A DNA stretch of 64,000 bases from an uncultured Candidatus Saccharibacteria bacterium (GTDB lineage Bacteria; Patescibacteriota; Saccharimonadia; Saccharimonadales; JAGQNJ01). Positions 7,010 to 51,458 of this stretch are shown here, in pieces (the first letter of the stretch is position 1; each line of letters opens with the position of its first letter). Under the pieces are notes generated by a model. That model was not told the origin of the DNA and made no database searches. It saw nothing but the letters and a program-made list of their open reading frames with translations. The stretch spans positions 142,566-206,565 of the forward strand of contig CAZNZL010000001.1 in NCBI GenBank assembly GCA_964577565.1, given 5' to 3'. Both the position numbers and the translations under genes were made by a program.

Positions 7010-7065
7010 TGTATGTAATTGTAACCCGATCTACTGTCACTAAGAACTATCTTGTAACTACGCGC

Positions 7066-7671
7066 TTACAATATTGTGCTCCAGTAATACCAAAATCGGT
7101 GAATGATGAGGGCTACTATTGTTACGTACCAGACTACAAGAATGTCGGCATGGTGGCGTTGCATAAACAGCACAATATTGTTAAAGCGAGCAGGAGTACG
7201 TATATGACCCTCTTTTAAATTATGCAGCGTGGTATACCAGAACAACGGCCAGGTTACGCTCCAAACTACCATGCAGTAGATACAAAGCGCACCAATTGAA
7301 TAGAGACTTTGATATGCCAGCCACAGACAAAAAAGTAAGCCAAAGGTTGTGCCGGCCTGCAAACCTCTCCAAAACCAGCGTTTAAACTGCGCACCCGCAA
7401 AAAGCGCCATGCCTACGGTAACAACTACGCTATAACCAACTAAGCCGATAAATGGATTAGGAAACCCAAACGCCGATGCTTGCGGTGTTCTAATAATTGA
7501 ACCACAACTCAAAACCGGATTTAGATTACAGGACGGTTGATAATCAGGGTTTTTAAGCAGCTCAATTTTCTCTAGCGATAAGATAAAAGCGCATATAAGT
7601 CCAATTGCACCCAAAACTACAAGTAGCCACGGTAAGACGTGTTTGAGCTTTTTTGTTCCAAGCTTTGCCAT
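7066..7671 (-). CDS. vitamin K epoxide reductase (VKOR) family membrane protein
   Basis: Loop Cys pair PSCNLNPVLSCGS plus the CIYC redox motif in a TM helix; 4-5 hydrophobic segments. Confidence 0.8.
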   Translation of the reverse strand: MAKLGTKKLKHVLPWLLVVLGAIGLICAFILSLEKIELLKNPDYQPSCNLNPVLSCGSIIRTPQASAFGFPNPFIGLVGYSVVVTVGMALFAGAQFKRWFWRGLQAGTTFGLLFCLWLAYQSLYSIGALCIYCMVVWSVTWPLFWYTTLHNLKEGHIRTPARFNNIVLFMQRHHADILVVWYVTIVALIIHRFWYYWSTIL

Positions 7672-7689
7672 TAGCGCTATTATATCACT

Positions 7690-8076
7690 TTAAGGGGTGC
7701 TTGTGCCATCGAGGCGATAGATTCTGTCATGATCGAGACCAAAAAAATGAGCAATTTCATGCCACAGGGTATGTTTAATGTTAGCTTTCAGCTCGGTCTT
7801 ATTTCTGCTTGTTGATTCAAGCGGCTTTTTAAATAGTATTATCTTATCAGGCAAAACCAGGCTATAATTATTGCCCCGCTGCGTTAAGGGAATACCTTCA
7901 TAAAGCCCAAAAAGTGTTTGACCAAAATGCAAATGCAGTTTTTGGCGCTGCTCTTCGGTTGGTTCATCTTCAGTAACAATTGCCACATTATTAAGGCGCT
8001 CCACGTACTCTTTTGGAAGCTCGTCAAGTGCCTGGTTGATCATCTGCTCAAACTCTTCATTAGTAACTATATACAT
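7690..8076 (-). CDS. small zincin-like metallopeptidase family protein (Zincin_1/DUF1025-like)
   Basis: HEIAHFFG (HExxH) near the C-terminus. N-terminus MYIVTNEEFEQMINQALDELP is typical of the family. ATG 8076 is preferred over the upstream TTG 8106. Confidence 0.7.
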   Translation of the reverse strand: MYIVTNEEFEQMINQALDELPKEYVERLNNVAIVTEDEPTEEQRQKLHLHFGQTLFGLYEGIPLTQRGNNYSLVLPDKIILFKKPLESTSRNKTELKANIKHTLWHEIAHFFGLDHDRIYRLDGTSTP

Positions 8077-8104
8077 TAAAGTTATTATAGCGGGCAGTTG
8101 ATAC

Positions 8105-8135
8105 AAAAAACAGCCGTGTTTTCACGGCTGTTTTT
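8105..8135. terminator. intrinsic terminator downstream of the Pro-rich ORF (minus strand), symmetric flanks
   Basis: aaaaaaCAGCCGTGttttCACGGCTGttttt. Confidence 0.7.
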
Positions 8136-8153
8136 AAGGTAGTCAGATTATTC

Positions 8154-8396
8154 TTACAGCGAGTTTCCAGCAGGAGGAACATCTGTTGGAGCTTCGTTGC
8201 TCTGAGCCGGTACTCCTAAATCTTCACCACCTGGTACTGGTTGCTCTGGGGCTACCGGTGCTTCGGGAGCTGCTGGCGCTTCAGGAGCAGGTGCAGCTGG
8301 GTCAACCGGAGGTTGTTGTACTGGTTCTTGTGGTGTTTGAGGCTCATCTGGTGTTGGCACAGGGTTCACGCCTGGATCTGGTGTTTGTGGGTCCAT
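8154..8396 (-). CDS. proline/glutamate/alanine-rich low-complexity 80-aa protein
   Basis: SD AAGGAG 6 nt upstream of the ATG and its own terminator. Sequence dominated by P-E-A-P-type repeats (APAPEAPAAPEAPVAPEQP). Confidence 0.55.
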   Translation of the reverse strand: MDPQTPDPGVNPVPTPDEPQTPQEPVQQPPVDPAAPAPEAPAAPEAPVAPEQPVPGGEDLGVPAQSNEAPTDVPPAGNSL

Positions 8397-8481
8397 ATAG
8401 GTCTCCTTATTGATTTTAATAGTAACTTCTTTACCTTACTACATTATTAACGTAACAGCAAAGCGATTGTAAAGTTTACAC

Positions 8482-9003
8482 CTATGCTGGTACGATTTTG
8501 CCACAAGCCAAGCGAGGTCCGCCGCTATGGCCGGACCCGGCTTCGCCTGGGGTGTGCGGGTCTTCATTTGCATGAACCATTAATGACGTGCCCTCTGTTG
8601 CCTGCAAGATTGAAACCGGCCCATCAGAAAGCGTAACGCGAGTGGTAATCGCTTCTAAAATACCCTTGCCTGTCTCATCGATGACAATGCTTGGCAGGTC
8701 TCCCGCGTGAAAACCATGATTAGCATCCGGATCGGTATTGCCGCTGGGGCCTGGATCAAAATGCCCGCCCGCACATTTAAAACCGTTGCATTCACAATCG
8801 CCCTTTTCATGAATGTGAACCGCATGGTTGCCGGGTGTTAGGGTTTTTGGATTACCGCTGAGCTCTAACCGCATATATACATAGGGCCAATTATTAATCT
8901 GATACTCGGTAAACTGGGCAGTACCTTTGATATCTGGTCCGCTAATGTTTGCCTTGGCGCGTTTGGTAATAGCTTTGTCATCTGATTGTAAGAGTATTGT
9001 CAT
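8482..9003 (-). CDS. sodC: Cu/Zn superoxide dismutase, apparently without a signal peptide
   Basis: HAVHIHEKGDC, GGHFDP, HAGDLP, MVHANEDP and the C-terminal ...RLACGKI. SD AAAGGAAAG. The in-frame upstream region has no alternative start. Confidence 0.88.
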   Translation of the reverse strand: MTILLQSDDKAITKRAKANISGPDIKGTAQFTEYQINNWPYVYMRLELSGNPKTLTPGNHAVHIHEKGDCECNGFKCAGGHFDPGPSGNTDPDANHGFHAGDLPSIVIDETGKGILEAITTRVTLSDGPVSILQATEGTSLMVHANEDPHTPGEAGSGHSGGPRLACGKIVPA

Positions 9004-9128
9004 TGGCGTCTTTCCTTTCGTATCATAAAATATATAGTTCCTATAAGTAGAAGCGTAACGATCGTAAACAAAACTATACTTTTTGTGGCCAGCGAATGGC
9101 TGATTGAGTGATGGGCGATTACGTGCAT
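9000..9128 (-). CDS. candidate 42-aa His-rich single-TM mini-protein coupled to sodC (or a frameshifted SodC membrane anchor)
   Basis: My own translation: MHVIAHHSISHSLATKSIVLFTIVTLLLIGTIYFMIRKERRQ. Its TGA overlaps the sodC ATG (ATGA). No clear SD. Confidence 0.3.
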   Translation of the reverse strand: MHVIAHHSISHSLATKSIVLFTIVTLLLIGTIYFMIRKERRQ

Positions 9129-9146
9129 GTAATCATTATACGATAC

Positions 9147-9716
9147 TTACGATCGACTGGCAGCTTTAGAACGAATAAGTACCCATAATAGGGCCGCCAA
9201 AACAAACAGAATGCCGCTATAGAATATGATGCCTCCGTATAGTTCTACTTTATATCCTTCGCTGGGGAACATATTAAAATAACGTATGGCTGCAGCAGCA
9301 TAGGCGCCCGAACAGACAAGTGCCGTAAATGCCAGTGCCCGTCCACTATACTCTAGAGCAACAATAATTAATGGAATGGCATACAAAATAATAGCGTTAC
9401 TGGCCATGCCTCGTTCGGCGTAAATGCTATAGGTAGCAATGCCAATATACATGGCAATTTGTAAAAAGATAATGCCGCGATAATAACTTGGTCTTAATCG
9501 TGGCTTGTGGCTAAACCACCACAGTGTTGCGTTAATGCTCATGACTGCCAATATGACAAACCATCGCGTTTGCAGTGCATTGGGCGTTAAAAGGCGCCAT
9601 GCCTGATATATAGCTGTAGATAGAATATACACTGCAATAAATACAAAACCAAGCCGAGCCGTTCTGAGGCTGGCAAGGTGCATACGGTTGCTTTCAGATA
9701 CTTCTGCTTTGTTCAT
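9147..9716 (-). CDS. polytopic membrane protein, unknown function
   Basis: 189 aa with about six hydrophobic segments; no motif recognised. Confidence 0.6.
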   Translation of the reverse strand: MNKAEVSESNRMHLASLRTARLGFVFIAVYILSTAIYQAWRLLTPNALQTRWFVILAVMSINATLWWFSHKPRLRPSYYRGIIFLQIAMYIGIATYSIYAERGMASNAIILYAIPLIIVALEYSGRALAFTALVCSGAYAAAAIRYFNMFPSEGYKVELYGGIIFYSGILFVLAALLWVLIRSKAASRS

Positions 9717-9772
9717 CTGTAAATATTAAACATAAGGGTAATCGTATTGTCAATTTTGTTACGGGTGAATAT

Positions 9773-10276
9773 CTACCAGCCGCCTTTAACGCGAAACCAT
9801 TTCCATATTAATCCATCAAGCAGCAGATGGCTGAAGTAGCCTGTAACAGCTGCCCCGTAAAATAGTAGGCTTGGTATTAGATTGTCGTGTTGGTATAAGT
9901 ATGGGATTGCTACAATGGGTATGGGTACCAGTAGCATTGCCAATTTATTATGTGTCCATCCCCTATGCTTGCCCACGATTGGTGTCATTGCCAGCAGTCC
10001 CAAATATGCAGCGGCTTCAAGCCGGCCAACTAGAATCAATAACACATTAAGACTAAAGGCAATGCCATAAAAAATGTCTTGTGCTTTAGAATTTGTATCA
10101 ACATCCGGCCAAAGACCAAACAGCATAGCTACTACAAATAGCGCCGCAAGCATTTGCCAGCTACTCAGCATACCGCCTGTTTTAGTCGCAATATCACCCG
10201 GAAGTACAGAAATAACCGCAACATATGCAAAGCAACCAATAACTGCGCCTCCCAAGTGCCCTTTATAATTAGCCAT
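9773..10276 (-). CDS. membrane-bound metal-dependent hydrolase family (YdjM/DUF457-like)
   Basis: N-terminal KGHLGGA, then GKHRGWTHN and FSHLLLDG His-rich motifs in a multi-TM protein. Confidence 0.65.
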   Translation of the reverse strand: MANYKGHLGGAVIGCFAYVAVISVLPGDIATKTGGMLSSWQMLAALFVVAMLFGLWPDVDTNSKAQDIFYGIAFSLNVLLILVGRLEAAAYLGLLAMTPIVGKHRGWTHNKLAMLLVPIPIVAIPYLYQHDNLIPSLLFYGAAVTGYFSHLLLDGLIWKWFRVKGGW

Positions 10277-10331
10277 GGCTTAAATATGTACCGCTTATGG
10301 TTGTGAGTCAAGTCAGGTTGCGCTTACGATG

Positions 10332-10595
10332 TTAATTACTCGACTGGCGACTAAAGTATTTAATAAGGGCAATCACAATAACAGAACCAATTACAGGAAA
10401 CACGAACGCGTTGAACGTTATAAGAAATTCCGATGTTTTATCAAAGAGCGCAAATAAACTGCCACCAGCTAGGGCTCCCATAATGCCATAGCCGATGTAT
10501 TTGTATGTTACTGTGTTGTTTTGATTGTCTTCTACCATTGCCGCAATCCAACCGGACAATGCCCCAAAAATTACCCAAAAGAAAATGAGTATCAC
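10332..10595 (-). CDS. GlsB/YeaQ/YmgE-family transglycosylase-associated small membrane protein
   Basis: 87 aa. FGALSGWIAAMV and GIMGALAGG glycine-zipper helices. GTG start with SD AAGGAGGAG. Confidence 0.75.
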   Translation of the reverse strand: MILIFFWVIFGALSGWIAAMVEDNQNNTVTYKYIGYGIMGALAGGSLFALFDKTSEFLITFNAFVFPVIGSVIVIALIKYFSRQSSN

Positions 10596-10634
10596 GCGTA
10601 TCTCCTCCTTGCTATTGTTGTTTGAGCCATTTTT

Positions 10635-10754
10635 CTATGTCAACCGCCCAAACACACGGTCACCCCGGCCATCAATAATTGCTATCAGCGCTTTCGGAAA
10701 ACGAGGAAAGTTTGCCCCGTTTCGTACACGTATAGCCTGTGGTGTGCTATGCAT
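10635..10754 (-). CDS. candidate 39-aa small ORF with consensus SD
   Basis: My own translation: MHSTPQAIRVRNGANFPRFPKALIAIIDGRGDRVFGRLT. TAAGGAGG lies 6 nt upstream of the ATG. Sits just upstream of the GlsB-family gene. Confidence 0.35.
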   Translation of the reverse strand: MHSTPQAIRVRNGANFPRFPKALIAIIDGRGDRVFGRLT

Positions 10755-10877
10755 TTCACGCCTCCTTAATACTCCCGACTATTAATAATCGCCCGCTTTG
10801 TGCACTGGTGCAGTAAAAAAAATTCCTTACCGTGTGTAATATATTTCACACATTTTTAATAATCTCTCGATAAAATA

Positions 10878-12746
10878 ATGATATCAATGCATTCCCGCAA
10901 ATTATTGACGAGACTTCGAAGGCCACGAAAAGATCCTTTAGCTTTTTTACGAACTCAAAAAATATATGGCCGAAACTCACATCTAGTTGCTACCTTGCTT
11001 GTGTTGCTTACCTGCTTGGCGGCTACGGGCGCGGTATGGTATGGGGCTCGAAAAAATGCCGATAAAGTGTTCCAGCAAGAAGCAGAAAAGCGCATTGAAG
11101 ACTCCAACCAGACTATCGGTAATCGTCTCGTACTAGTTACTACCGTACTTTCTAGTGGTAGCGGTTTGTTTGGTGCCTCAGAACAAGTCACCAGAGTAGA
11201 ATGGAATTCTTTTATTGGTCAGGTGTATCAGCAAAGATTATTTCCGGGCGTTAGAGCGTTTGGTTATGTCTCGTATGTAAAATCAGGGGAATTGCAAGAG
11301 CACACAACTGCCATGCGACAAATCAGTAAGCCGGATTACGCTGTAGTGCCGGTTACTAACGAAACCGATATTCATGCTCCGATTAGTTTTCTGGCTCCTC
11401 CAAATACAAAACGTGAAAGAGTCATAGGTTATAATATGTACTCCAACGAAACAAGGCGAAACGCTATAAATATCGCCCGTGATAGCGGCAAAGTCTCTCT
11501 CTCGGGAAAAGTTGACTTAGTAGCCCATAGAAACGGAACGCCGTCCGAACGTGGTCTTATCTTGTTTCAACCTATATATCATAAAAACAAGCCCCTAGGG
11601 ACCGTTGAGCAAAGACGACAAAACATAATGGGCTTCACGTATGCTGTCATTGTCATTGATGAAATGTTCTCTGGTGTATTCGGTTCGAATAATAATAACG
11701 ACATCGGCATTGAAATTTATGATAACAACCATAAAAGCGAGGCCGACCTCATGTATCGGTCAGAAAATTACGACGCCATTGCATCCAGCAGTAGAAGTTT
11801 TGTAAAAGAAAGAAAAGAAACGATAACTGATCATGAATGGTTGATAACGTATGCAGTAGCCCATGATACCCTTTCCCCAGCAGAAAGAGACGCGCCCTTT
11901 TCTACCCTGCTAAGGGGTGTGGTTTTAAGTCTCGCGTTAGCATTTTTTGTGTACTATCTTTTAACGTACCGGACGAGAAAAATACTTGAAGCTAAGCACT
12001 ATGAGGTTCAAAGTGCGAAAGATGACTTGTTATCATTAGCATCCCATCAGTTACGTACCCCCGCCACCGTTGTTAAGCAATACGTCGGTATGTTACTCCA
12101 GGGTTACGGTGGAGAGCTGAACGATCAACAAAAAAATATGCTAGAGAGCGCCTATACGAGCAATGAAAGGCAACTCCAAATTATTAACCAAATTCTCTAT
12201 GTCGCCCGTCTGGATGCCGGCCAAATAAGGCTTCATAAAGAGCGAACTAATTTGAACAAGCTGCTCAAAGAGGTAGCCGATGAACACCGCCCATCGTTTA
12301 GGGAAAATAAGCAAAAGTTTAATCTTCGACTACCCACCAAAACAATTTATATTCGTGGCGATCGACAGTATCTTCATATGGTACTTGATAATCTACTTAG
12401 CAATGCTGGCAAATACACCCCACCAGGCGGTAGAGTTTCGACTATTTTAACATCGGGTGAAGGACGAGCGACCATAACGGTTAAAGATAGCGGAGTGGGT
12501 GTTACAAAGGGTGAATTAGCAGGTATTTTTGATAAATTCACTCGAGGGACAAGTGAAATGACAGCTCAGGTAAGCGGCAGTGGCATAGGGTTGTATCTGG
12601 TCAAAAAAATTACTGAGCTGCACCGTGGCAGTATAGAGGCACGGCCAAATAAGCCAAGCGGTACCATTTTTGAGCTTTGTTTACCGCTCGGGATATCAAG
12701 GCGAATAAAAGCGAGGAAGGATACACGTGATAGAAATTCCGCTTAA
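10878..12746 (+). CDS. sensor histidine kinase with extracytoplasmic CHASE-like domain
   Basis: Two TM segments flank a roughly 280-aa domain with CHASE-like blocks (VRAFGYVSYV..., IGYNMYSNETRRNAINIARDSG, LILFQPIY). H-box SHQLRTP and an HATPase region (DSGVGV, GSGIGL). Confidence 0.85.
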   Translation: MISMHSRKLLTRLRRPRKDPLAFLRTQKIYGRNSHLVATLLVLLTCLAATGAVWYGARKNADKVFQQEAEKRIEDSNQTIGNRLVLVTTVLSSGSGLFGASEQVTRVEWNSFIGQVYQQRLFPGVRAFGYVSYVKSGELQEHTTAMRQISKPDYAVVPVTNETDIHAPISFLAPPNTKRERVIGYNMYSNETRRNAINIARDSGKVSLSGKVDLVAHRNGTPSERGLILFQPIYHKNKPLGTVEQRRQNIMGFTYAVIVIDEMFSGVFGSNNNNDIGIEIYDNNHKSEADLMYRSENYDAIASSSRSFVKERKETITDHEWLITYAVAHDTLSPAERDAPFSTLLRGVVLSLALAFFVYYLLTYRTRKILEAKHYEVQSAKDDLLSLASHQLRTPATVVKQYVGMLLQGYGGELNDQQKNMLESAYTSNERQLQIINQILYVARLDAGQIRLHKERTNLNKLLKEVADEHRPSFRENKQKFNLRLPTKTIYIRGDRQYLHMVLDNLLSNAGKYTPPGGRVSTILTSGEGRATITVKDSGVGVTKGELAGIFDKFTRGTSEMTAQVSGSGIGLYLVKKITELHRGSIEARPNKPSGTIFELCLPLGISRRIKARKDTRDRNSA

Positions 12747-13131
12747 ATCTATCAAGCAACGTGACTTCAAACCGAAAGTACTGCTGGTTGAAGATGAGCA
12801 ACCGTTGCGCGATGCGTTCTCGTTCTTATTAATGTCAGAAAAATATCCTCATGAAACAGCTTCAGACGGGATAGCTGCGCTTAAAAAACTGCGTTCCTTC
12901 AAGCCCGACATTATTCTACTAGACTTACTTATGCCCATGATGGATGGCATAGAATTTTTACACAAAGCCAATCTTAAACTAAACCATCCTAACTGTAAGG
13001 TAATAATTATGAGTAATTTGGCCGACGTAATACGGGTACGCGACGTAGCTCACTTTAATGTTAAAAAAGTTCTTATAAAAGCTAACTTATCGCCGCGCGA
13101 AATCGTGCACGTAATACAAAAATACGCCTAA
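12727..13131 (+). CDS. single-domain response regulator (REC only)
   Basis: KVLLVEDE...DIILLDLLMPMMDG...MSN...K. GTG start overlaps the kinase 3' end. Confidence 0.85.
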   Translation: MIEIPLKSIKQRDFKPKVLLVEDEQPLRDAFSFLLMSEKYPHETASDGIAALKKLRSFKPDIILLDLLMPMMDGIEFLHKANLKLNHPNCKVIIMSNLADVIRVRDVAHFNVKKVLIKANLSPREIVHVIQKYA

Positions 13132-31600: not shown

Positions 31601-31808
31601 AGGGTATCCTTTACTTGTTATAGTTGTATCGACCAAATTTTAAATGTTCTTTTACCAAAAAAGCCTTTGGCATTCCAAAGACTTTTATACGATTTTTGCT
31701 TAAACGGCTTCTCGTACCTCGGTAGCATTCTTAATTCGCTCGTGAGCGAACGCTACTGTCTTTGGTAAATAACATCTTAATTTTAACAAATTATTATTGT
31801 TTCGTCAA
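31601..31808 (-). promoter_or_regulatory. rplJ promoter plus L10-leader-like 5' UTR with an internal hairpin and U-run
   Basis: Minus strand: TTGACG (31808-31803), 17 nt, TAAAAT (31785-31780). Leader hairpins TTCGCTcacgAGCGAA and CTTTGGaatgCCAAAG followed by T6 (31657-31681). Not checked with a covariance model. Confidence 0.45.
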
Positions 31809-33971: not shown

Positions 33972-36290
33972 TTAAGACTTGTCTAGTTGTTTTAATTTAA
34001 ATTGTGTATATCGTTCAGCTGCCAACCGTGTTAATTCAGGGTCCTCACCCTGATTTACAAACTTCATGGCTTCAGCAATTAATGGATGTACTTCTGCAAG
34101 CTTTTCGTGCATTTGTTGTACGAGTTTTCGATAGCCAGGGTGGCCTTGTGGTGAGGTTCGTAGCTCATGAAGGTGAAATGCTTCGCGGGCATTATACGTT
34201 ACCTTCCAGCGCATTTTATGACCAAGTAGTGTTGCATATTGGGCTTCAAGTTCGTACCCAGCTGCCTGAAGTTCGCTGTAGAGCTGAAGGCTACTATCGA
34301 AACACTTTTCAAACAAATCAACCAACCCGGCCTCTTCAATTAATTTTGGAATATCATAGCCGTAACGCGGGGTTAAATACTGCCATTCAAGGTCATCAAC
34401 GATGCGGTGGCGCTGTAGGTCTCTAAAGATACCGTAGTCACATATTAAATCCCAGCTATAATGAGCTTTTTCTAAGGCTCTGCCTGGCTTGTGCCGGCGA
34501 TTTAACCGCTCACCCATATAACTTCTAAAGATTTCTACGCGCTTATCGTATGGCAAATTAAGGACGCTACGATTTAAGTCTTCCAGTGGTAGGTTGGTGT
34601 GTTCATATAACATATCTGCAACCAAATCGAGCTCGTTGCGTGGCCAATAGCTCGTTAGGGTGACGGCTTCGTTTGCTTCGCTATAATGGCTTGGTACTAC
34701 TTCTTGGGCGTGTTGCTTCATGGCGGCGCGGGTGTTTGACCAATAGGCAATAGTAGCACCGCCTCGATCAGCTTTATCGGCTCGTTCTAAGAAAGTTGAG
34801 ACTACTTTTCGACTTTCATCAAGCAGGGCCTGACCTACGTCACGTGCTTCTGGCAAATCATCGCTAAGTAAGTGCATAATTAAGCTTTCTAAGGCCTGGC
34901 CAGAAGCATAAATGCCAACCGTTGACGTCGTAGCAACGGGCAGAACCGGACGTACGGCATCACATGCCTGAGCTCGGGTAGCTCCCTTCCACGCTAGATC
35001 TTGCTCTTTTTTTGGAACGTTAGAGTTTTTTCGTACGTGATCAGTAAGTTTGTGAACCATTTCAGAATATAAATCAAAAATTTTGTCCATGCTGTCGATG
35101 TATTTTTGTTTTACATCATCATTAAAGTGTTTTGGCGTTAAGTAGCGGTAATTGCCGTTTTTGTCTTTTTGGTCAAAATATATGTAGCGAGTTGACTGTT
35201 CTAAATATGAAGCCAATCGGCCCCACTCAAGCTTTTTGGTTAGCAAATTCGAGGCGTTTTCTACCACAACATGTTGCCCTGCAAGCTGCTGTACGGAGTC
35301 ATCTCCGTAGGCAGTAATAACGCGGCGCAGCAAATCCTTGTCTTTATCTGCTTTATTGGCAAACTCATCTAAGATTGTTATACGCATATCATCGCCGCGA
35401 CGGCTTAAACGCGCCATAGCCGCAGCAATTGTGACCGTGCTTAGCTCGTCGGTAAACGCATAAACATTGTCAGTTGTATTTGTAACGGCTTTTTGAAGAT
35501 ATGCCTTGCCATTATCGGTGATTTCATAGCCGTTTTCAGTCTTACGCAGCAATTCAGTTTCGTCTTGTTGCTTATTGCTGGTTTTTAGCATAGGTTTGAC
35601 TTTCTCCCATATTAAGTTATGAATTTCATCAATACTGAGTAGTTTGCCGTCACGTATACTGTCAATACGCTGAAAGTCTTTTGGAAACAACTCGCATAAA
35701 TCTTTATATACTTCAAGTGAGCGCTCAATGTGTGCTTCATCAGCTTCATGAATGTCTTTTTTGACATGCGTGCTTGAGTTCTCTTTTGCAGCTAGCCGTT
35801 CTTTGATGACTTCAAGTGGTGTATATAAAACAAAGCTTAAGTTTGGACGGGGTATGCCGAGCATTTCAAACTCTAAATTATCGAGCCAAATAAAATACCC
35901 CCGCCGTTCTTCTGGGTTGTTAAATTTTGTACCTTGGTGCGCCATGTTTGAGCCCACATACCGGTCGCACAACACAATTTTACCGGCCCTAAGAGCGTCT
36001 TTGATTTCTTTGGCGGCCTGGTAACGGTCTAAGGCATAAAACATCGAGCTCTTGTACGGCCCTACCTCGTTAGCCTCGCCGTACTTACCTGCGAGGTATT
36101 CGCGAACAAAGTAGCTTGATTCTTCATCGTAACGAGGAAAATGAATATTCAGGATATCATAGCCCTCGTCGGTTAGCTTTTTTTGCAGCGCTTCATACTG
36201 CGTAGATTTACCTGACCCGTCAGTACCCTCAATGACGATGAACAAACCAGTTTCTTCCCCACCCTTGTTAAGTGTGGAAGAATTATTCAT
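33972..36290 (-). CDS. fusion protein: N-terminal thymidylate kinase plus a roughly 540-aa tandem ThyX-like (flavin-dependent thymidylate synthase) module
   Basis: Tmk part: IVIEGTDGSGKSTQ P-loop and CDRYVGSNMAHQ. C-terminal part: LASYLEQSTRYIYF (S..S.RY block) in the first repeat, FRDLQRHRIVD (RHR) in the second, and FHLHELRTSPQGHPGYR. ATG 36290 overlaps the dcd stop by 8 nt. Confidence 0.75.
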   Translation of the reverse strand: MNNSSTLNKGGEETGLFIVIEGTDGSGKSTQYEALQKKLTDEGYDILNIHFPRYDEESSYFVREYLAGKYGEANEVGPYKSSMFYALDRYQAAKEIKDALRAGKIVLCDRYVGSNMAHQGTKFNNPEERRGYFIWLDNLEFEMLGIPRPNLSFVLYTPLEVIKERLAAKENSSTHVKKDIHEADEAHIERSLEVYKDLCELFPKDFQRIDSIRDGKLLSIDEIHNLIWEKVKPMLKTSNKQQDETELLRKTENGYEITDNGKAYLQKAVTNTTDNVYAFTDELSTVTIAAAMARLSRRGDDMRITILDEFANKADKDKDLLRRVITAYGDDSVQQLAGQHVVVENASNLLTKKLEWGRLASYLEQSTRYIYFDQKDKNGNYRYLTPKHFNDDVKQKYIDSMDKIFDLYSEMVHKLTDHVRKNSNVPKKEQDLAWKGATRAQACDAVRPVLPVATTSTVGIYASGQALESLIMHLLSDDLPEARDVGQALLDESRKVVSTFLERADKADRGGATIAYWSNTRAAMKQHAQEVVPSHYSEANEAVTLTSYWPRNELDLVADMLYEHTNLPLEDLNRSVLNLPYDKRVEIFRSYMGERLNRRHKPGRALEKAHYSWDLICDYGIFRDLQRHRIVDDLEWQYLTPRYGYDIPKLIEEAGLVDLFEKCFDSSLQLYSELQAAGYELEAQYATLLGHKMRWKVTYNAREAFHLHELRTSPQGHPGYRKLVQQMHEKLAEVHPLIAEAMKFVNQGEDPELTRLAAERYTQFKLKQLDKS

Positions 36291-36987
36291 ATTTAATACC
36301 TTTAATGGCCTCCGGCTTGATTCTCGTGTCTTTGTACGCACGTGGCAGCATTTGATCCGGGCTCCAGGCTGAAACAATACTTTCAATATTGTTACTAGTG
36401 TTTGACTGATATTTGCCGCTCAATTTTTTATACTCTTGGTCAACGGGCCCTGTTTCGTAAAAGACCATTTGTGCAATACGTTCGCCTACCGGTAAGACGA
36501 CACTTTCATGTTGGTTCATGTTGTAGATCTCCATGGTCCACCTATTAACATAACCCGGGTCGCCCCAACCGGCATCAAGGCAAACTGCTACACCGTTTCT
36601 GCCCCATGTGCTTCGAGCCTGCATAGTGCTTGTTCCTGGTGCTTTGATACCAATAAATTCATGAGTATGAGCCAATATGCGCTCGTGCGGCCGCAACACA
36701 ATAATAGGATGGTCTGGTGGAATATTTTTAAATAGAGCGCGCCCGTGAGCTTTTGCCCACTGTTTGTGAATCTCTGCTTTGAACGGGCCGCTAAAATAAT
36801 TATCTACTGACTGTTTATCAAAAGGGTTATAAAACCCACCTTGGCTCGGACGCTCGGTGCGGTAATACCAATAGCCCAACGTAACATCTACGCTGCTGCC
36901 AGCAATGTTTTTCTCGGTATAGGGGTGAAAAACTATATGCCCGTCTTTAACAGCTTTTTTTATTTGTCGGTTACTATATACTCCCAT
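36283..36987 (-). CDS. dcd: dCTP deaminase / dUTPase-superfamily protein
   Basis: SNRQIKKAVKDGHIVFHPY, GSSVDVTLG, ERIAQMVFYE. ATG 36987 with GAGGGAG upstream (the alternative ATG 37014 is possible). Confidence 0.82.
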   Translation of the reverse strand: MGVYSNRQIKKAVKDGHIVFHPYTEKNIAGSSVDVTLGYWYYRTERPSQGGFYNPFDKQSVDNYFSGPFKAEIHKQWAKAHGRALFKNIPPDHPIIVLRPHERILAHTHEFIGIKAPGTSTMQARSTWGRNGVAVCLDAGWGDPGYVNRWTMEIYNMNQHESVVLPVGERIAQMVFYETGPVDQEYKKLSGKYQSNTSNNIESIVSAWSPDQMLPRAYKDTRIKPEAIKGIKYE

Positions 36988-48709: not shown

Positions 48710-49732
48710 TCATGAACGTAACCCTATGGCTTTTTGGACACGCAGCAATGTTTCATTAGCTACTTTGTTCATAGCTTGTTCTGATGCTTCAAGTTTTTGC
48801 CGGAGGGCTTGCTCATCCACATCTGTAAGTCTGGCCTGAAAGTTTCGTAAAAAATTTGCAACTGCATCAGCAACCGCAGTCTTTAATGGTCCGTATTGAG
48901 TTTGCCCAATAAACGCATTCTGATCACCGCCTAAGAACTTATAGATATCCAGTAGGTTGCTGATACCTGGCTGTTTTTGATAATCATAAACTATCTTTCC
49001 TAATGAATCTGTAGTGGAGCCCATAACTTTTCGATGTGCATTTTCTGGCGTATCGCCCAAGAATATAACCCCTTTACTGCTACCTTCGGATTTACTCATT
49101 TTTTTCTCTGGGTTAACTAAATCTCTGACGCGTAAACGCTGCTGTTGGCTCGCAAAAGCAATCTGCTCTTTTTCTGGCGCAGGAGGTGTGAATAGCTCAC
49201 CAAATTTGTTATTCATTCTAATCGCAATATCTCGCGCAAGTTCAACGTGTTGAGTTTGGTCTGCACCAACGGGTACATATTTTGCGCCATACAATAAAAT
49301 ATCAGCCGCCATGAGGACGGGGTAATCAAATAGCCCAACGCTGACACTACTCTTGCCTTGCCCTTTTTCTTTGAATTGCGTCATGCGATTTAATTCACCG
49401 ATATACGTAAAACTATTTAAAATAATAGTTAGCTCGCTGTGTGCAGGGATGAAGCTTTGACGGTATAAATAGGTGTCTAACTGATTAAGGTCAAGGCCTG
49501 CCGCAATATAGAGCTTGAGATTATGCATGGTTTGTTCATACAATCGTGAATGGTCAATTGGTGTCGTAAAACTGTGTAAATCTGGTACAAATAGATTAAT
49601 TTGATATTCGCCCGTATATTTCTTTTGCAGTTCCACCATAGGGAGCAACGCCCCTAGATAGTTACCGAGGTGCAAGTCATTATTTGCTCTTAAGCCAGTT
49701 AGAATTACTGGTTTACTCATATTTAACTTCAT
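48710..49732 (-). CDS. trpS: tryptophanyl-tRNA synthetase
   Basis: LHLGNYLGAL (HIGH-like), GADQTQH, KMSKS. The start could be 49720. Confidence 0.93.
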   Translation of the reverse strand: MKLNMSKPVILTGLRANNDLHLGNYLGALLPMVELQKKYTGEYQINLFVPDLHSFTTPIDHSRLYEQTMHNLKLYIAAGLDLNQLDTYLYRQSFIPAHSELTIILNSFTYIGELNRMTQFKEKGQGKSSVSVGLFDYPVLMAADILLYGAKYVPVGADQTQHVELARDIAIRMNNKFGELFTPPAPEKEQIAFASQQQRLRVRDLVNPEKKMSKSEGSSKGVIFLGDTPENAHRKVMGSTTDSLGKIVYDYQKQPGISNLLDIYKFLGGDQNAFIGQTQYGPLKTAVADAVANFLRNFQARLTDVDEQALRQKLEASEQAMNKVANETLLRVQKAIGLRS

Positions 49733-49744
49733 TATAGCGCATAT

Positions 49745-50656
49745 TTATGCAAAGTATGGTGTAGAATCTGTGGCACGGATTGGTGCTGTAATTTGGCGGA
49801 TTCGTGCACGTTTGATTATTGTTACATATTGTTTTGCAATGTCGGGTGAGACGGGTGGGTCAACTGGGCTTTCAAGATTGCTTGCCTCACACAGTACCGC
49901 GGCGGGTGCGTAGCCACTGGTAGCTAACTCGGCGATGTGTCGCAGGGCGCGTTCTTGTGCAATAGCTGACTTTTGGAATTCGCCAGCAGGGTCATGGGCC
50001 ATTTCTGACCCATGAGCGGCATCAACGACCATTAAACCATTAGTAGCGGTGTAGGCTTCAATATAGAGTTTTTCCCACGCTTCTGGTGTTTTTGCAGCTT
50101 CTCCGCCACGAAATACTAAGAAAACTGGTGCTCCTGCGTCTCCGCGTGCAGCGTTTAACCGGTCAACCGTTATTAATGCAGGTTCAACTTCGCCTGACAA
50201 AGGATTCTTCTCACCTAATGGTATAGCAGGATCCTCTAGGGCTATTTCTTCTTTTTCATCCTCGTCTTCAAGGCGACTACCCAACCACCCAAGTGCTATT
50301 CTTGAGCCGTACCGTACCACGTGTTCTAGTCGCCCAAGCTCCATCGCAACATTGCCGCGCAGTTTTGCTTGCTTATCGATGCGAGCAAACGCACCAACTG
50401 GATCCGTTGTCTCCATGCCAAACCAACTTGTCGGCAAGGTACGCGGTTTCCAGACGCACATACGCTCTAACGTTGCATCGATAACTTCTTCTTCAGCCGT
50501 AAGTGCACACGGTCCTTGTATATCAATAAAGCCCCGGCCCGACATAGTTTTTGTAACAAGATTACGATGGTAATCTCGGCGCTCTTCTAACTCAGGCGTG
50601 AATTCAAACATGTCATGCAATTCTTCTGCCGTTGGTGTTTCTGGTGCAAATTTCAT
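49745..50656 (-). CDS. divergent DAHP-synthase (AroG-like class I) family protein
   Basis: By-eye alignment to E. coli AroG blocks: IDIQGPCA (GPCS), VWKPRTL (KPRTT), WLGSR (GART), LGEKN (GFKNG), FRGGE (LRGG), VVDAAHGS (IDFSHANS), LCEAS (VESH). SD GGAAAGGA. Confidence 0.5.
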   Translation of the reverse strand: MKFAPETPTAEELHDMFEFTPELEERRDYHRNLVTKTMSGRGFIDIQGPCALTAEEEVIDATLERMCVWKPRTLPTSWFGMETTDPVGAFARIDKQAKLRGNVAMELGRLEHVVRYGSRIALGWLGSRLEDEDEKEEIALEDPAIPLGEKNPLSGEVEPALITVDRLNAARGDAGAPVFLVFRGGEAAKTPEAWEKLYIEAYTATNGLMVVDAAHGSEMAHDPAGEFQKSAIAQERALRHIAELATSGYAPAAVLCEASNLESPVDPPVSPDIAKQYVTIIKRARIRQITAPIRATDSTPYFA

Positions 50657-50675
50657 ATATTCCTTTCCTAGTATT

Positions 50676-50830
50676 AAAAAAACCGCCGTGTGGCGGTTTG
50701 GTTTAACAATTTATTACAAATCTAAGCCGAACGCCACACGTGTGGGTTTGTAAACCAAACGTAAAAATAGTTTACCGTTCGACGTATCATAACGACTATG
50801 ACAATACTATATAAAGGTTGCTCACGTCAA
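50676..50830 (-). promoter_or_regulatory. candidate promoter plus structured leader ending in a strong hairpin/U7 20 nt upstream of the DAHP-synthase-like gene
   Basis: Minus strand: TTGACG (50830-50825). A 10-bp long-range helix, gtttggttta (50760-50751) with taaaccaaac (50705-50696), encloses a CCACACGTGTGG palindrome. Then AACCGCCacacGGCGGTTttttt (50698-50676). Confidence 0.45.
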
Positions 50831-51059
50831 ATAAATTGTGCGAAAAAGCGAAAAGATTAGCATAATCATACATGTCAGCACAATATGAAGGATCACGCGT
50901 TTTTTGCCATATATCAGATAAATCATTACAGCACTCATTAGTAACGCGTGGCGCCCAGTATAATAAAGTTCTTAAGTATAAGAACGATACTAACCAGCGA
51001 AAACGGTGTCAACCAAAAATCTTTTGGCCGAATATACGGCATGGTAAAAGTATAGCAAA

Positions 51060-51458
51060 TTAGCGTTTCGTAAACTGGCGTTGTTTACGAGCGCCTTTAA
51101 GGCCAAACTTTTTGCGTTCTTTTTCGCGGGGATCACGACCAAGCATATCGGCACGCTTTAAGGTGCTCTTAAGGTCACTGTTCATAGTTGCCAAGGCGCG
51201 GGCAATTCCAAGCCTTATGGCATCTACTTGGCCAGCGTGACCGCCGCCTGACACACGAGCACTTACATCAAACTTATTAACCTGATCTAGAATGACAAAT
51301 GGTTTTTGAAGTTCGTTTAGTAGTGCTTTGCTTGTAGCAAAGTATTCTTCAGCAGGCTTCCCGTTGACGCTTATAGCACCCTTGCCGTTCGTCAAACGAA
51401 CACGCGCAGTGGCACTTTTTCGTCGCCCTAGAGCATAAAAATAAGTATCTTTTACCAT
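51060..51458 (-). CDS. rpsI: ribosomal protein S9
   Basis: YALGRRKSATARV...GGGHAGQVDAIRLGIARAL...KQRQFTKR. Confidence 0.95.
   Translation of the reverse strand: MVKDTYFYALGRRKSATARVRLTNGKGAISVNGKPAEEYFATSKALLNELQKPFVILDQVNKFDVSARVSGGGHAGQVDAIRLGIARALATMNSDLKSTLKRADMLGRDPREKERKKFGLKGARKQRQFTKR

What the first reader, a model, noticed from the sequence alone, without database searches (positions are those of the whole stretch)
49745..50830. Stand-alone divergent DAHP-synthase-like gene with a structured leader
The 303-aa protein aligns by eye with the catalytic blocks of class-I DAHP synthase (AroG). The GPC(A), KPRT, GxR, K, H (AAHGS), E (CEAS) and D positions are all present. However, it is about 50 aa shorter and highly diverged.

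No other shikimate-pathway gene is in this window, and small CPR-like genomes usually lack the pathway. The enzyme may therefore make a different sugar-acid or serve another role.

A leader precedes the gene, containing:
- a 10-bp long-range helix
- a CCACACGTGTGG palindrome
- a strong hairpin plus U7 ending 20 nt before the start codon
Basis: partly seen in the sequence, partly recalled or inferred. Interest (0 to 1): 0.55.

Follow-up and report, generated by a model that had tools for sequence, protein, structure and literature searches.

The report
Tryptophan-attenuated DAHP synthase–trpS operon
A tiny-genome Saccharibacterium keeps a stripped-down but catalytically intact relative of the first enzyme of aromatic amino-acid synthesis, co-transcribed with its tryptophan tRNA-charging enzyme. 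A classical leader-peptide switch appears to turn both on when tryptophan runs short.

Summary
ORF 49745-50656 (-) encodes a 303-aa protein with no Pfam hit of its own. It belongs to a Saccharibacteria-specific branch of class I-alpha DAHP synthase. A family profile matches E. coli AroF/AroG (E 5e-25), hhalign to AroG gives 99.3%, and Foldseek gives TM about 0.73. All eleven AroG metal, PEP and E4P residues are kept, but the allosteric beta6a/6b hairpin is deleted.

The "structured leader" is a ribosome-mediated transcription attenuator, made of:
- a promoter;
- a nearly leaderless 22-codon ORF (MIRRTVNYFYVWFTNPHVWRSA) with an invariant in-frame UGG-UUU;
- an antiterminator;
- a terminator with U7.

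I found it in 26 Saccharibacteria loci. Covariation supports the terminator and the antiterminator.

The gene sits 12 nt upstream of trpS, in a variable slot: rpsI, leader, cargo, trpS. In relatives the slot carries a prephenate-dehydratase-like gene behind a Phe-rich leader, or small ORFs, or nothing. One lineage has a full trpEGDFCBA operon there behind a different, Trp-rich leader.

The most likely reading is a real DAHP synthase induced together with TrpRS by Trp-tRNA shortage. I could not test whether this genome has the rest of the shikimate pathway.

It is a new member of known kinds and moderately interesting.

The parts
50801..50830 (-). Sigma-70-like promoter of the leader: -35 TTGACG (50825-50830), 18-nt spacer, -10 TATTGT (50801-50806).
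   Evidence: Consensus scan. In 24 of 25 related leaders a TAnnnT box lies 5-11 nt before the leader ATG, mostly with a TTGACA-like -35.
50722..50790 (-). Leader peptide ORF, 22 codons: MIRRTVNYFYVWFTNPHVWRSA, ending in stop codon TAG. It is nearly leaderless, with the ATG 10 nt after the -10 box.
   Evidence: The conserved UGG is in frame within an ATG-started short ORF in 25 of 25 leaders, against 1 of 25 and 2 of 25 for the other two frames.
50752..50757 (-). Sensor codons UGG UUU (Trp12, Phe13). The UGG is invariant at this position in 25 of the 26 leaders; L105 carries UUC there and its UGG lies upstream. The preceding codon is Tyr or Phe in most relatives and Val here.
   Evidence: Alignments A3 and A5; peptide table.
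50740..50748 (-). Region 1, the 5' arm of the 1:2 hairpin. A ribosome stalled at UGG would mask it.
   Evidence: repeat I9. The 1:2 hairpin is more stable than shuffled controls in 25 of 26 leaders.
50730..50739 (-). Region 2, GUGUGGCGUU. It pairs either with region 1 or with region 3 (the antiterminator).
   Evidence: repeat I1; 84% of cells paired, 5 pairs with changes on both sides.
50688..50699 (-). Region 3, AAACCGCC plus loop ACAC. It is the 5' arm of the terminator and the 3' strand of the antiterminator.
   Evidence: repeats I1 and I4.
50676..50687 (-). Region 4, GGCGGUUU, running into a U7 tract: the 3' arm of the intrinsic terminator.
   Evidence: Terminator pairs are 94.7% paired across 26 leaders, with 5 compensatory pairs and 0 of 500 shuffles reaching the observed covariation score and percentage paired.
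50751..50760 (-). It overlaps the Trp codon. It is lineage-specific and is not in the minimum-free-energy or antiterminator structures.
   Evidence: repeat I2. The enforced structure scores -26.9 kcal/mol against -34.6 for the minimum-free-energy fold. The complementarity is not conserved in relatives.
50662..50668 (-). Shine-Dalgarno-like GGAAAGG, ending 5 nt before the ATG of the DAHPS-like gene.
   Evidence: Read directly from the sequence.
49745..50656 (-). Divergent, minimal class I-alpha DAHP-synthase homologue, 303 aa.
48710..49732 (-). trpS, tryptophan--tRNA ligase. The conserved start MSKPVILTG is at 49720. It lies 12-24 nt downstream of the DAHPS-like stop, with no terminator between.
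   Evidence: TIGR00233 at 269.9 bits; synteny.

Best explanation
The locus is a two-gene operon under one attenuator. The order is promoter, leader peptide, attenuator, aroG/H-like DAHP synthase, trpS.

**Enzyme.** The protein is a pared-down class I-alpha DAHP synthase. It most likely still condenses PEP with erythrose-4-phosphate on a Cys/His/Glu/Asp metal site. It has lost the elements that bind the feedback inhibitor in AroG (my reading: the beta6a/6b hairpin and part of the N-terminus). Control has therefore probably moved to transcription.

**Switch when Trp-tRNA is plentiful.**
1. RNA polymerase starts a few nt before the ATG of a 22-codon leader ORF.
2. The ribosome runs through to the stop codon at 50722-50724.
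3. Region 2 is covered by the ribosome or paired with region 1.
4. The terminator (regions 3:4 plus U7) forms, and transcription stops 19 nt before the DAHPS start codon.

**Switch when Trp-tRNA is scarce.**
1. The ribosome stalls with UGG (50755-50757) in the A site. Scarce Phe- or Tyr-tRNA may act in the same way at the flanking codons.
2. The stalled ribosome masks region 1.
3. Region 2 (GUGUGGCG) pairs with region 3 (CGCCACAC).
4. The terminator cannot form, and both DAHPS and TrpRS are transcribed.

**Shown:** homology, fold, residue conservation, operon synteny, conservation and covariation of the RNA elements, and the in-frame UGG.

**Inferred:** enzyme activity and substrate, loss of allostery, direction of regulation, and the existence of downstream pathway enzymes in this genome.
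For: **Protein**
- The family profile hits solved I-alpha DAHPS full length: 6agm at E 4.9e-25 and AroG 1n8f at about 1e-20. I-beta DAHPS scores 5.6e-12 and KDO8PS only 0.03.
- hhalign to AroG gives 99.3% and all 11 listed AroG residues align to identical residues. Most of them are invariant or more than 90% conserved in 74 relatives.
- The AlphaFold2 model has pLDDT 96.2. Foldseek top hits are all I-alpha DAHPS, with TM 0.71-0.75.
- 60 of 74 relatives hit PF00793.
- IMG names one relative phospho-2-dehydro-3-deoxyheptonate aldolase.

**Operon**
- The order L13, S9, leader, DAHPS-like, (optional gene), trpS, rluD, holB holds in all 20 related loci where the flanks are present, plus the window.

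**Attenuator**
- Rfam Trp_leader is the best, though sub-threshold, hit: 28.5 bits, E 0.0012.
- My covariance model finds the element in 26 loci.
- Terminator: 94.7% paired, 5 compensatory pairs, and 0 of 500 shuffles reach the observed covariation score and percentage paired.
- Antiterminator: 84% paired, 5 pairs changed on both sides, 5-8 of 500 shuffles on those two measures and 27-81 of 500 on the other three.
- The 1:2 hairpin beats shuffled controls in 25 of 26 leaders.
- UGG is in frame in 25 of 25 leaders, against 1-2 of 25 in the other frames. A -10 box lies 5-11 nt before the ATG in 24 of 25.
- Masking the RNA as a ribosome stalled at W12 would gives the antiterminator. Masking as a ribosome at the stop codon would gives the terminator.

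**Cargo logic**
- The same leader family precedes a prephenate-dehydratase-like gene. Those leaders are Phe-rich: FFGFFWF and FFWGFFF.
- A different leader with three Trp codons (EWRWTLW) precedes trpEGDFCBA-trpS in the same slot.

**Precedents**
- C. glutamicum aroR-aroF and E. coli pheST are controlled by attenuation (PMC11802643).
Against: - No other shikimate or Trp biosynthesis gene is in the 64-kb window. The rest of the genome could not be examined, so DAHP may have no onward pathway here.
- The window protein itself fails Pfam and NCBIfam thresholds. Relatives reach only 26-33 bits on aroFGH TIGR00034, against a cut-off of 173.
- The window protein and P0002 lack about 17 residues between the GPCA and KPRT blocks (helix alpha-1 in my reading) that other family members keep.
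- The leader also occurs with unrelated small ORFs as cargo, or directly before trpS. Its primary target may therefore be trpS, with the DAHPS-like gene a passenger.
- UGGUUUAC is conserved at the nucleotide level, so RNA-level constraint cannot be separated from codon-level constraint.
- The 1:2 helix shows no covariation in a fixed register.
- There is no experimental evidence of any kind.
Confidence: 0.68

Rival explanations
1. The genome has no shikimate pathway, and the DAHPS-like enzyme makes DAHP or a different 3-deoxy-ulosonate phosphate for another purpose, such as a surface glycan precursor, a metabolite handed to the host, or a carbon sink. It still sits in the Trp-responsive trpS operon.
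For: - No pathway partner lies in the 64 kb.
- My literature searches on Saccharibacteria found no report of a shikimate pathway or a DAHP synthase. By general knowledge the phylum largely lacks amino-acid biosynthesis.
- The family is far diverged from the aroFGH equivalog models and has remodelled loops.
- The slot upstream of trpS also holds non-aromatic cargo: a racemase-like gene, an M20 peptidase and a GNAT.
Against: - The motif that contacts the aldose phosphate is the DAHPS type, KPR(T/S), not the KANRS I recall for KDO8PS. KDO8PS is only a marginal match, E 0.03.
- Expression is tied to aromatic-codon translation.
- Relatives carry a prephenate-dehydratase-like gene or a full trp operon in the same slot. 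TrpB is common in Saccharimonadales. So aromatic metabolism exists in the phylum.
Confidence: 0.2
2. The attenuator exists to control trpS. The DAHPS-like gene is a decaying or non-catalytic passenger, a remnant of an ancestral aromatic supra-operon. It may have been retained for a structural or regulatory role, for example binding an aromatic ligand or TrpRS.
For: - The leader occurs directly before trpS (L031) and with unrelated small ORFs as cargo.
- Many Saccharibacteria have rpsI abutting trpS with no cargo at all (L024 and L029).
- The window protein has an extra deletion of about 17 residues after the GPCA block.
Against: - All 11 listed AroG active-site residues have identical counterparts, and most are 90% or more conserved across 74 sequences at 27-63% identity to the window protein. 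This argues for selection on catalysis.
- The model is a confident, complete barrel with pLDDT 96.
- The ORF is intact in all 21 loci.
Confidence: 0.07
3. The leader works by another mechanism. Possibilities are a nascent-peptide arrest that senses free tryptophan in the manner of TnaC, a metabolite- or protein-binding RNA, or a constitutive terminator of upstream transcription, with the short ORF being incidental.
For: - The peptide motif (Y/F)-W-F-T is conserved at the amino-acid level. By recollection, it resembles the K-W-F of TnaC.
- The nucleotides UGGUUUAC are nearly invariant.
- The antiterminator covariation is modest: 5-8 of 500 shuffles on two measures, 27-81 of 500 on the others.
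Against: - The element has the four-region architecture, with mutually exclusive 2:3 and 3:4 pairings that co-vary.
- Region 1 starts right after the Trp codon, where a stalled ribosome would mask it.
- The second Trp of the window peptide falls out of frame in relatives.
- No T-box or riboswitch family matched, even at E up to 10.
- The leader has its own promoter.
- Inducing a tRNA ligase at high Trp makes little physiological sense.
Confidence: 0.05

Closest known systems
E. coli AroG / AroF / AroH and N. meningitidis DAH7PS (class I-alpha DAHP synthases, PF00793)
   Same: - Same (beta/alpha)8 fold (Foldseek TM 0.71-0.75).
- Full-length profile homology.
- Identical metal ligands (Cys, His, Glu, Asp) and identical PEP/E4P-binding Lys-Pro-Arg-Thr, Arg, Lys and Arg.
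- A shared N-terminal helix region.
   Different: - 15-18% identity.
- 47 aa shorter.
- The family lacks about 12 residues that AroG has after the KPRT block, the roughly 15-residue beta6a/6b hairpin and about 15 residues between the Glu and Asp ligands. In AroG the hairpin helps build the Phe/Tyr/Trp inhibitor site (my own knowledge).
- The window protein also lacks about 17 residues between the GPCA and KPRT blocks.
- Scores lie far below the aroFGH equivalog cut-off.
- So far found only in Saccharibacteria, and always next to trpS.
Corynebacterium glutamicum aroR-aroF leader-peptide attenuator
   Same: A short leader peptide with aromatic codons (Phe-Tyr-Phe) controls transcription of a DAHP-synthase operon through ribosome stalling (PMC11802643).
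   Different: - Here the invariant codon is Trp, flanked by Tyr/Phe and Phe.
- The operon ends in trpS.
- I have no evidence of sequence relationship between the two leaders.
- The host is a CPR bacterium.
E. coli trpL attenuator (Rfam RF00513 Trp_leader)
   Same: - Four-region logic: a Trp codon just upstream of region 1, mutually exclusive antiterminator and terminator, and a U-tract.
- It is the best Rfam hit (28.5 bits, E 0.0012).
- By recollection the E. coli peptide ends in WWRTS; the window peptide ends in VWRSA.
   Different: - Below the gathering score (41).
- A single functional Trp codon instead of a tandem pair.
- A near-leaderless leader ORF.
- It controls DAHPS plus trpS rather than trpEDCBA.
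- A closer functional twin is the Saccharibacterial leader of L102, with three Trp codons before trpEGDFCBA-trpS.
Attenuator-controlled aminoacyl-tRNA synthetase genes: E. coli pheST (pheM leader), Streptomyces trpS1, and the T-box control of trpS in Firmicutes
   Same: A tRNA ligase gene is switched on by a shortage of its own charged tRNA through a terminator/antiterminator leader. The pheST case is documented in PMC11802643; the others are from my own knowledge.
   Different: - It is not a T-box: no Rfam T-box match and no tRNA-binding specifier architecture.
- It differs from pheST in amino acid and in carrying a biosynthetic gene in the same transcript.

Membership tests
Class I DAHP synthase superfamily (Pfam PF00793 DAHP_synth_1), subclass I-alpha | Significant sequence/profile homology over the whole catalytic barrel | tested here: met
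   The family profile against PDB I-alpha DAHPS gives E 4.9e-25 over profile positions 8-305. hhalign to AroG gives 99.3% and E 3.7e-20. 60 of 74 relatives hit PF00793.
Class I DAHP synthase superfamily (Pfam PF00793 DAHP_synth_1), subclass I-alpha | The protein itself passes the curated Pfam / NCBIfam thresholds | tested here: not met
   There is no Pfam hit even at E up to 10. The only NCBIfam hit is PRK08673 at 10.8 bits against a cut-off of 335. Relatives score 26-33 bits on TIGR00034 against a cut-off of 173. The protein is homologous, but lies outside the curated equivalog.
Class I DAHP synthase superfamily (Pfam PF00793 DAHP_synth_1), subclass I-alpha | (beta/alpha)8 barrel fold superposable on solved DAHPS | tested here: met
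   The AlphaFold2 model has pLDDT 96.2 and pTM 0.92. The top 50 Foldseek PDB hits are all I-alpha DAHPS, with probability 1.0 and TM 0.70-0.75.
Class I DAHP synthase superfamily (Pfam PF00793 DAHP_synth_1), subclass I-alpha | Metal ligands Cys, His, Glu and Asp, and the PEP/E4P-binding residues (KPRT, GxR, K, RGG) | tested here: met
   C50, H215, E257 and D266, together with R65, K70, R72, T73, R128, K150 and R183, align to AroG C61, H268, E302 and D326, and R92, K97, R99, T100, R165, K186 and R234. Most are invariant or 90% or more conserved in the family.
Class I DAHP synthase superfamily (Pfam PF00793 DAHP_synth_1), subclass I-alpha | I-alpha allosteric decorations (N-terminal extension and the beta6a/beta6b hairpin that bind Phe, Tyr or Trp) | tested here: not met
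   A 15-residue gap in the family lies where AroG has its hairpin, and the N-terminus is about 10 residues shorter.
Class I DAHP synthase superfamily (Pfam PF00793 DAHP_synth_1), subclass I-alpha | Catalyses PEP + erythrose-4-phosphate to DAHP, feeding a shikimate pathway present in the same genome | not testable with these tools
   This needs an enzyme assay and a whole-genome scan. Only 64 kb of a contig of about 483 kb was available.
KDO8P synthase (the other PF00793 branch) | KANRS-type motif and closest profile match to KDO8PS | tested here: not met
   The motif is WKPR(T/S). KDO8PS structures match at only E 0.03 over 73 residues.
Ribosome-mediated (leader-peptide) transcription attenuator | Short translated ORF carrying the regulatory codon(s) just upstream of the first pairing segment | tested here: met
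   There is a 22-codon ORF. UGG is in frame in 25 of 25 leaders, against 1-2 of 25 in the other frames. A promoter -10 box lies 5-11 nt before the ATG in 24 of 25. Translation itself is not shown.
Ribosome-mediated (leader-peptide) transcription attenuator | Intrinsic terminator between the leader ORF and the structural gene | tested here: met
   The stem has 8 bp followed by U7. Across 26 leaders it is 94.7% paired with 5 compensatory pairs, and 0 of 500 shuffles reach the observed covariation score and percentage paired.
Ribosome-mediated (leader-peptide) transcription attenuator | Antiterminator (2:3) mutually exclusive with the terminator, plus a 1:2 hairpin | tested here: met
   - 2:3 pairing: 84% paired, 5 pairs changed on both sides, 5-8 of 500 shuffles on two measures and 27-81 of 500 on the others.
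- 1:2 pairing: no fixed-register covariation, but more stable than shuffled controls in 25 of 26 leaders.
- Ribosome-masking folds switch as expected.
Ribosome-mediated (leader-peptide) transcription attenuator | Read-through rises when the cognate charged tRNA is limiting | not testable with these tools
   This needs Term-seq, reporter or in vitro assays.
Rfam RF00513 Trp_leader | Score at or above the gathering threshold (41 bits) | tested here: not met
   28.5 bits, E 0.0012. There is no hit at gathering level.
T-box leader | Match to the T-box covariance model, with specifier loop and T-box sequence | tested here: not met
   No T-box match at E up to 10 in 50500-51200 or at gathering level in the window.

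The most novel reading that the evidence does not exclude
These Saccharibacteria have no shikimate pathway, yet they keep a catalytically intact DAHP-synthase-like enzyme that is stripped of its allosteric site and is switched on only under tryptophan (aromatic) starvation together with TrpRS. Its product would then be an orphan metabolite. It could be exported to, or exchanged with, the host bacterium to stimulate aromatic supply. Alternatively the enzyme could have a new substrate. Either way, this would be a starvation-triggered metabolic hand-off in an obligate epibiont.
Probability: 0.15. Interest if true: 0.75.

Novelty: new member of a known kind. Interest (0 to 1): 0.45.

Why it matters
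Saccharibacteria are ultra-small epibionts generally thought to import their amino acids.

- **A compact sensing circuit.** A conserved Trp-sensing leader-peptide attenuator controls trpS together with an aromatic-pathway enzyme. This gives a testable circuit for how these organisms detect amino-acid supply from their hosts.
- **New to the resources I could check.** I found no description of this circuit in the searchable literature, and it matches no Rfam family at threshold.
- **Traces of lost biosynthesis.** The variable cargo slot holds a DAHP synthase, a prephenate-dehydratase-like gene, or a full trp operon in different lineages. It records stepwise loss of aromatic biosynthesis during genome reduction.
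- **Possible unexpected function.** If the rest of the pathway proves absent, the enzyme's retention would point to an unrecognised function.
- **Enzymology.** The protein is a natural minimal I-alpha DAHP synthase without the allosteric hairpin, which is useful for studying how that regulation evolved.

Tried and rejected
**Searches with the single sequence**
- Pfam, NCBIfam and PDB sequence searches with the window protein alone gave nothing usable. A family profile was needed.

**Locus scans**
- The search for related loci with the 74-sequence alignment failed because it had no conserved stretch. It worked with 15 sequences.

**Alternative RNA classes**
- T-box or riboswitch: no Rfam support.
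It is 7.7 kcal/mol worse than the minimum-free-energy fold and is not conserved in relatives.
- The second Trp (W19) as a sensor: rejected. It is out of frame or absent in relatives, and its UGG is part of the conserved region 2 RNA.
- 1:2 pairing in a fixed alignment register: not significant. I replaced it with a per-sequence test.

**Testing for the rest of the pathway**
- I looked for TrpB and PDT-like homologues on contigs of matching length. This was uninformative: only the top 120 TrpB hits are listed, and the PDT-like family has 2 members.
- The NCBI 483-kb contig could not be fetched.

**Literature**
- Searches for Saccharibacteria with shikimate, DAHP or tryptophan synthase terms found nothing relevant.

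**Other checks**
- The small ORFs that follow the attenuator in relatives are not detectably homologous to each other or to DAHPS and have no Pfam hit.
- Longer family members carry no fused chorismate mutase or other domain.
Full report
**1. What is at the coordinates**

The window has an ATG-started ORF at 49745..50656 on the minus strand, 303 aa. On its own the protein matches nothing in Pfam, even at E up to 10. It gets only a 10.8-bit hit to a DAHP-synthase NCBIfam model and nothing in PDB by phmmer.

It is nonetheless a real, conserved gene. An exhaustive phmmer search of 1.84 billion cluster representatives found 126 relatives, 79 of them at E below 1e-30 and nearly all about 290-330 aa. 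A scan of one genome per GTDB species returned 15 loci. Fourteen are titled as Candidatus Saccharibacteria, Saccharimonadia or Saccharimonadales MAGs and one only as "MAG: bacterium".

**2. What the protein is**

*Homology*
- A profile of 74 family members (A1) matches solved class I-alpha DAHP synthases over essentially their full length: E. coli AroF 6agm at E 4.9e-25, N. meningitidis 4hsn at 2.5e-22 and E. coli AroG 1n8f at about 1e-20.
- It matches class I-beta enzymes more weakly (1zco at 5.6e-12) and KDO8P synthase only marginally (0.03 over 73 residues).
- Sixty of the 74 relatives hit PF00793 individually.
- IMG calls one relative phospho-2-dehydro-3-deoxyheptonate aldolase.

*Fold*
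- The AlphaFold2 model of the window protein is very confident: pLDDT 96.2, pTM 0.92.
- All of its top 50 Foldseek hits in PDB are I-alpha DAHPS, with TM 0.70-0.75.

*Active site*
- I fetched E. coli aroG and aligned it to the family profile. The result was 99.3% probability and E 3.7e-20.
- AroG C61, H268, E302 and D326 (metal ligands) and R92, K97, R99, T100, R165, K186 and R234 (PEP/E4P binding) are residue roles I recall from the AroG structure literature.
- These align to C50, H215, E257 and D266, and to R65, K70, R72, T73, R128, K150 and R183 in the window protein.
- Most of these are invariant or at least 90% conserved across the family.

*Where the 47 missing residues went*
- Family-wide losses relative to AroG are about 12 residues after the KPRT block, a stretch of about 15 residues and about 15 residues between the Glu and Asp ligands. 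About 10 N-terminal residues are also missing.
- I read the middle stretch as AroG's beta6a/6b hairpin. In AroG, that hairpin and the N-terminus build the feedback-inhibitor site (my own knowledge). AroG-type allostery is therefore probably gone; this is an inference.
- The window protein and its closest relative P0002 also lack about 17 residues between the GPCA and KPRT blocks.

*Family placement*
- The motif that contacts the aldose phosphate is the DAHPS type, WKPR(T/S), not the KANRS I recall for KDO8PS.
- Relatives still score only 26-33 bits on the aroFGH equivalog model, against a cut-off of 173.
- This is a divergent branch, not a standard aroG.

**3. The gene is not stand-alone**

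Its stop codon is 12 nt from the first ATG of the next ORF, 48710..49732. It is 24 nt from the conserved MSKPVILTG start. That ORF is tryptophan--tRNA ligase (TIGR00233, 269.9 bits against a cut-off of 176.75). No terminator lies between the two genes.

The order L13, S9, leader, DAHPS-like, (optional gene), trpS, rluD, holB holds in every related locus I could fetch. It also holds in L028 from the metagenome scan. That makes 21 of 21.

**4. The leader is a leader-peptide attenuator**

*Elements on the minus strand between rpsI (stop at 51060) and the start codon at 50656*
- A sigma-70-like promoter: TTGACG, 18-nt spacer, TATTGT, at 50830-50801.
- Ten nt later, a 22-codon ORF at 50790-50722: MIRRTVNYFYVWFTNPHVWRSA.
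- An 8-bp GC-rich hairpin at 50699-50680, followed by U7.
- A Shine-Dalgarno-like GGAAAGG.

*Rfam*
- The best match, below threshold, is the enterobacterial Trp operon leader: 28.5 bits, E 0.0012, gathering score 41.
- No T-box or riboswitch appears.

*Conservation across relatives*
- The same architecture recurs in relatives that are otherwise diverged at the DNA level.
- A covariance model built from 18 leaders recovers 26 instances.

*Evidence that the short ORF is read*
- In 25 of 25 leaders checked, the conserved UGG lies in frame inside an ATG-started ORF of 20-29 codons, counted from the promoter-proximal ATG. The other two frames give ORFs in only 1 and 2 of 25.
- A TAnnnT box sits 5-11 nt before that ATG in 24 of 25, usually with TTGACA upstream. 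The leader ORF is therefore essentially leaderless.
- The stop codon falls 33-54 nt after the UGG, between regions 2 and 3.
- The peptides share (Y/F)-W-F, for example YWFTD, FWFTP and YWFTN.
- The second Trp of the window peptide is not conserved as a codon. In relatives the same GUGGCG nucleotides are read as V-A, G-G or L-A. That segment is therefore constrained as RNA.

*RNA pairings across 26 leaders*

| Element | Cells paired | Pairs changed on both sides | Shuffles reaching the observed value | Paired when the register is slid |
|---|---|---|---|---|
| Terminator (3:4) | 94.7% | 5 | 0 of 500 (score and % paired) | 26-68% |
| Antiterminator (2:3; GUGGCGG(UUU) with (AAA)CCGCCAC) | 84% | 5 | 5-8 of 500 on two measures, 27-81 on the others | 34-57% |

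- One example of a compensatory change is L012, where GUGACGG pairs with CCGUCAC.
- The 1:2 hairpin has no fixed register, so it shows no column covariation.
- Folded sequence by sequence, however, it is more stable than shuffled controls in 25 of 26 leaders. The mean is -6.9 against -3.9 kcal/mol.

*Alternative folds of the window RNA*

| State | Energy (kcal/mol) |
|---|---|
| Minimum free energy: 1:2 hairpin plus terminator | -34.6 |
| Antiterminator enforced | -32.7 |

- The 10-bp helix is also not conserved in relatives.
- Masking the nucleotides that a ribosome stalled with UGG in its A site would cover yields the antiterminator.
- Masking those that a ribosome at the stop codon would cover yields the terminator.
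- This is the classical trp-type logic: a shortage of charged tRNA-Trp gives read-through.

**5. Context from the wider phylum**

A metagenome scan with a Saccharibacterial TrpRS profile showed that the interval between rpsI and trpS is a variable slot.

| What occupies the slot | Loci |
|---|---|
| Nothing; rpsI abuts trpS | L024, L029 |
| Same leader directly before trpS | L031 |
| Same leader followed by unrelated small ORFs | L023, L032, L040 |
| Same leader followed by a prephenate-dehydratase-like gene (PF00800) | L036, L105 |
| Different leader, then a complete trpE-G-D-F-C-B-A operon, then trpS | L102/L103 (same arrangement as L034) |

- In the prephenate-dehydratase loci the leader peptides are conspicuously Phe-rich: FFGFFWF and FFWGFFF.
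- The trp-operon lineage has a different leader, with three Trp codons (MKQISNSSEWRWTLWKRGSLI) and its own terminator.
- TrpB is widespread in Saccharimonadales.

Aromatic biosynthetic genes therefore do exist in this phylum. They cluster with trpS, and their leaders carry codons appropriate to the cargo. This makes a genuine aromatic-pathway role for the DAHPS-like gene the most economical reading. It also suggests the slot is a remnant of a larger aromatic/trp operon.

**6. What remains open**

- The 64-kb window has no other shikimate or Trp gene (Pfam on 40 ORFs).
- I could not obtain the rest of the roughly 483-kb contig.
- Indirect tests were uninformative.
- Literature searches found no account of a Saccharibacterial DAHPS or shikimate pathway.
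- A passenger or pseudoenzyme reading gets about 7%, because the active site is so well conserved.

**7. Comparison with known systems, and verdict**

*The enzyme*
- It works like, and is homologous to, I-alpha DAHPS.
- It fails the curated equivalog thresholds and lacks the allosteric decorations.

*The leader*
- It works like trpL, or like the C. glutamicum aroR-aroF attenuator. It also resembles E. coli pheST in controlling a tRNA ligase (PMC11802643).
- It is not a member of any Rfam family at threshold.

*Verdict*
- Both parts are new members of well-known kinds.
- The combination is a single-Trp, aromatic-flanked, leaderless leader ORF controlling DAHPS plus trpS in a reduced CPR genome, with lineage-specific cargo swapping. 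It appears not to have been described and is moderately interesting.
- Interest is 0.45. Confidence in the main explanation is 0.68.

Noticed in passing
window 33972..36386 (-): An 804-aa ORF combines a thymidylate kinase domain (PF02223, residues 52-243) and a ThyX flavin-dependent thymidylate synthase domain (PF02511) in one reading frame. This looks like a Tmk-ThyX fusion.
   Followed up: no
L102 5590..5720 and 5739..13013 (also L103, L034): A Saccharibacteria-type contig has the order S9, then trpS, rluD, holB. It carries a complete trpE-G-D-F-C-B-A operon directly upstream of trpS. The operon is preceded by a distinct leader peptide with three Trp codons (MKQISNSSEWRWTLWKRGSLI) and a terminator.
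   Followed up: partly
L036 40..1327 and L105 3698..4995: A divergent prephenate-dehydratase-like gene (PF00800, 31 bits) sits between the same attenuator family and trpS. Its leader peptides are Phe-rich: MKRILNFFGFFWFTPQ... and MNKIVSFFWGFFFTPQ.... Only two such proteins exist in 5.8 billion sequences.
   Followed up: partly
P0150-P0232 (many entries); L104 10001..11491: Many Saccharimonadales TrpB proteins are about 495 aa. They carry an N-terminal Trp_repressor-like domain (PF01371) fused to the PALP domain. In L104 the gene is followed by trpA and lies away from trpS.
   Followed up: no
window 50822..51042 (-): Two short ORFs (34 aa at 50938-51042 and 38 aa at 50822-50938) together resemble, by eye, the single 68-aa hydrophobic ORF that follows rpsI in L001 (449-655). 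A similar ORF of 87 aa is in L040. The gene may be split or frameshifted in this genome.
   Followed up: no
L002 1243-1452; L007 5738-5998; L009 5672-5920; L023 3060-3473; L032 2937-3209; L040 2157-2477: Small ORFs of 69-137 aa sit immediately after the attenuator terminator in relatives. They have no Pfam hit and no significant similarity to one another or to the DAHPS family.
   Followed up: partly
L007 6991-7614, L035 2776-3483; L019 6842-7933, L030 2313-3485; L001 2183-2737: Other genes recur in the slot just upstream of trpS: an Asp/Glu-racemase-like gene, an M20 peptidase and a GNAT acetyltransferase.
   Followed up: no
window 31648..31783 (-): A ribosomal protein L10 leader (Rfam RF00557, 56.4 bits, above the gathering score) lies upstream of the rplJ region.
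   Followed up: no
window 10878..12746 (+): A 622-aa histidine kinase with an extracellular CHASE sensor domain (PF03924) is unexpected sensory equipment for a reduced epibiont genome.
   Followed up: no
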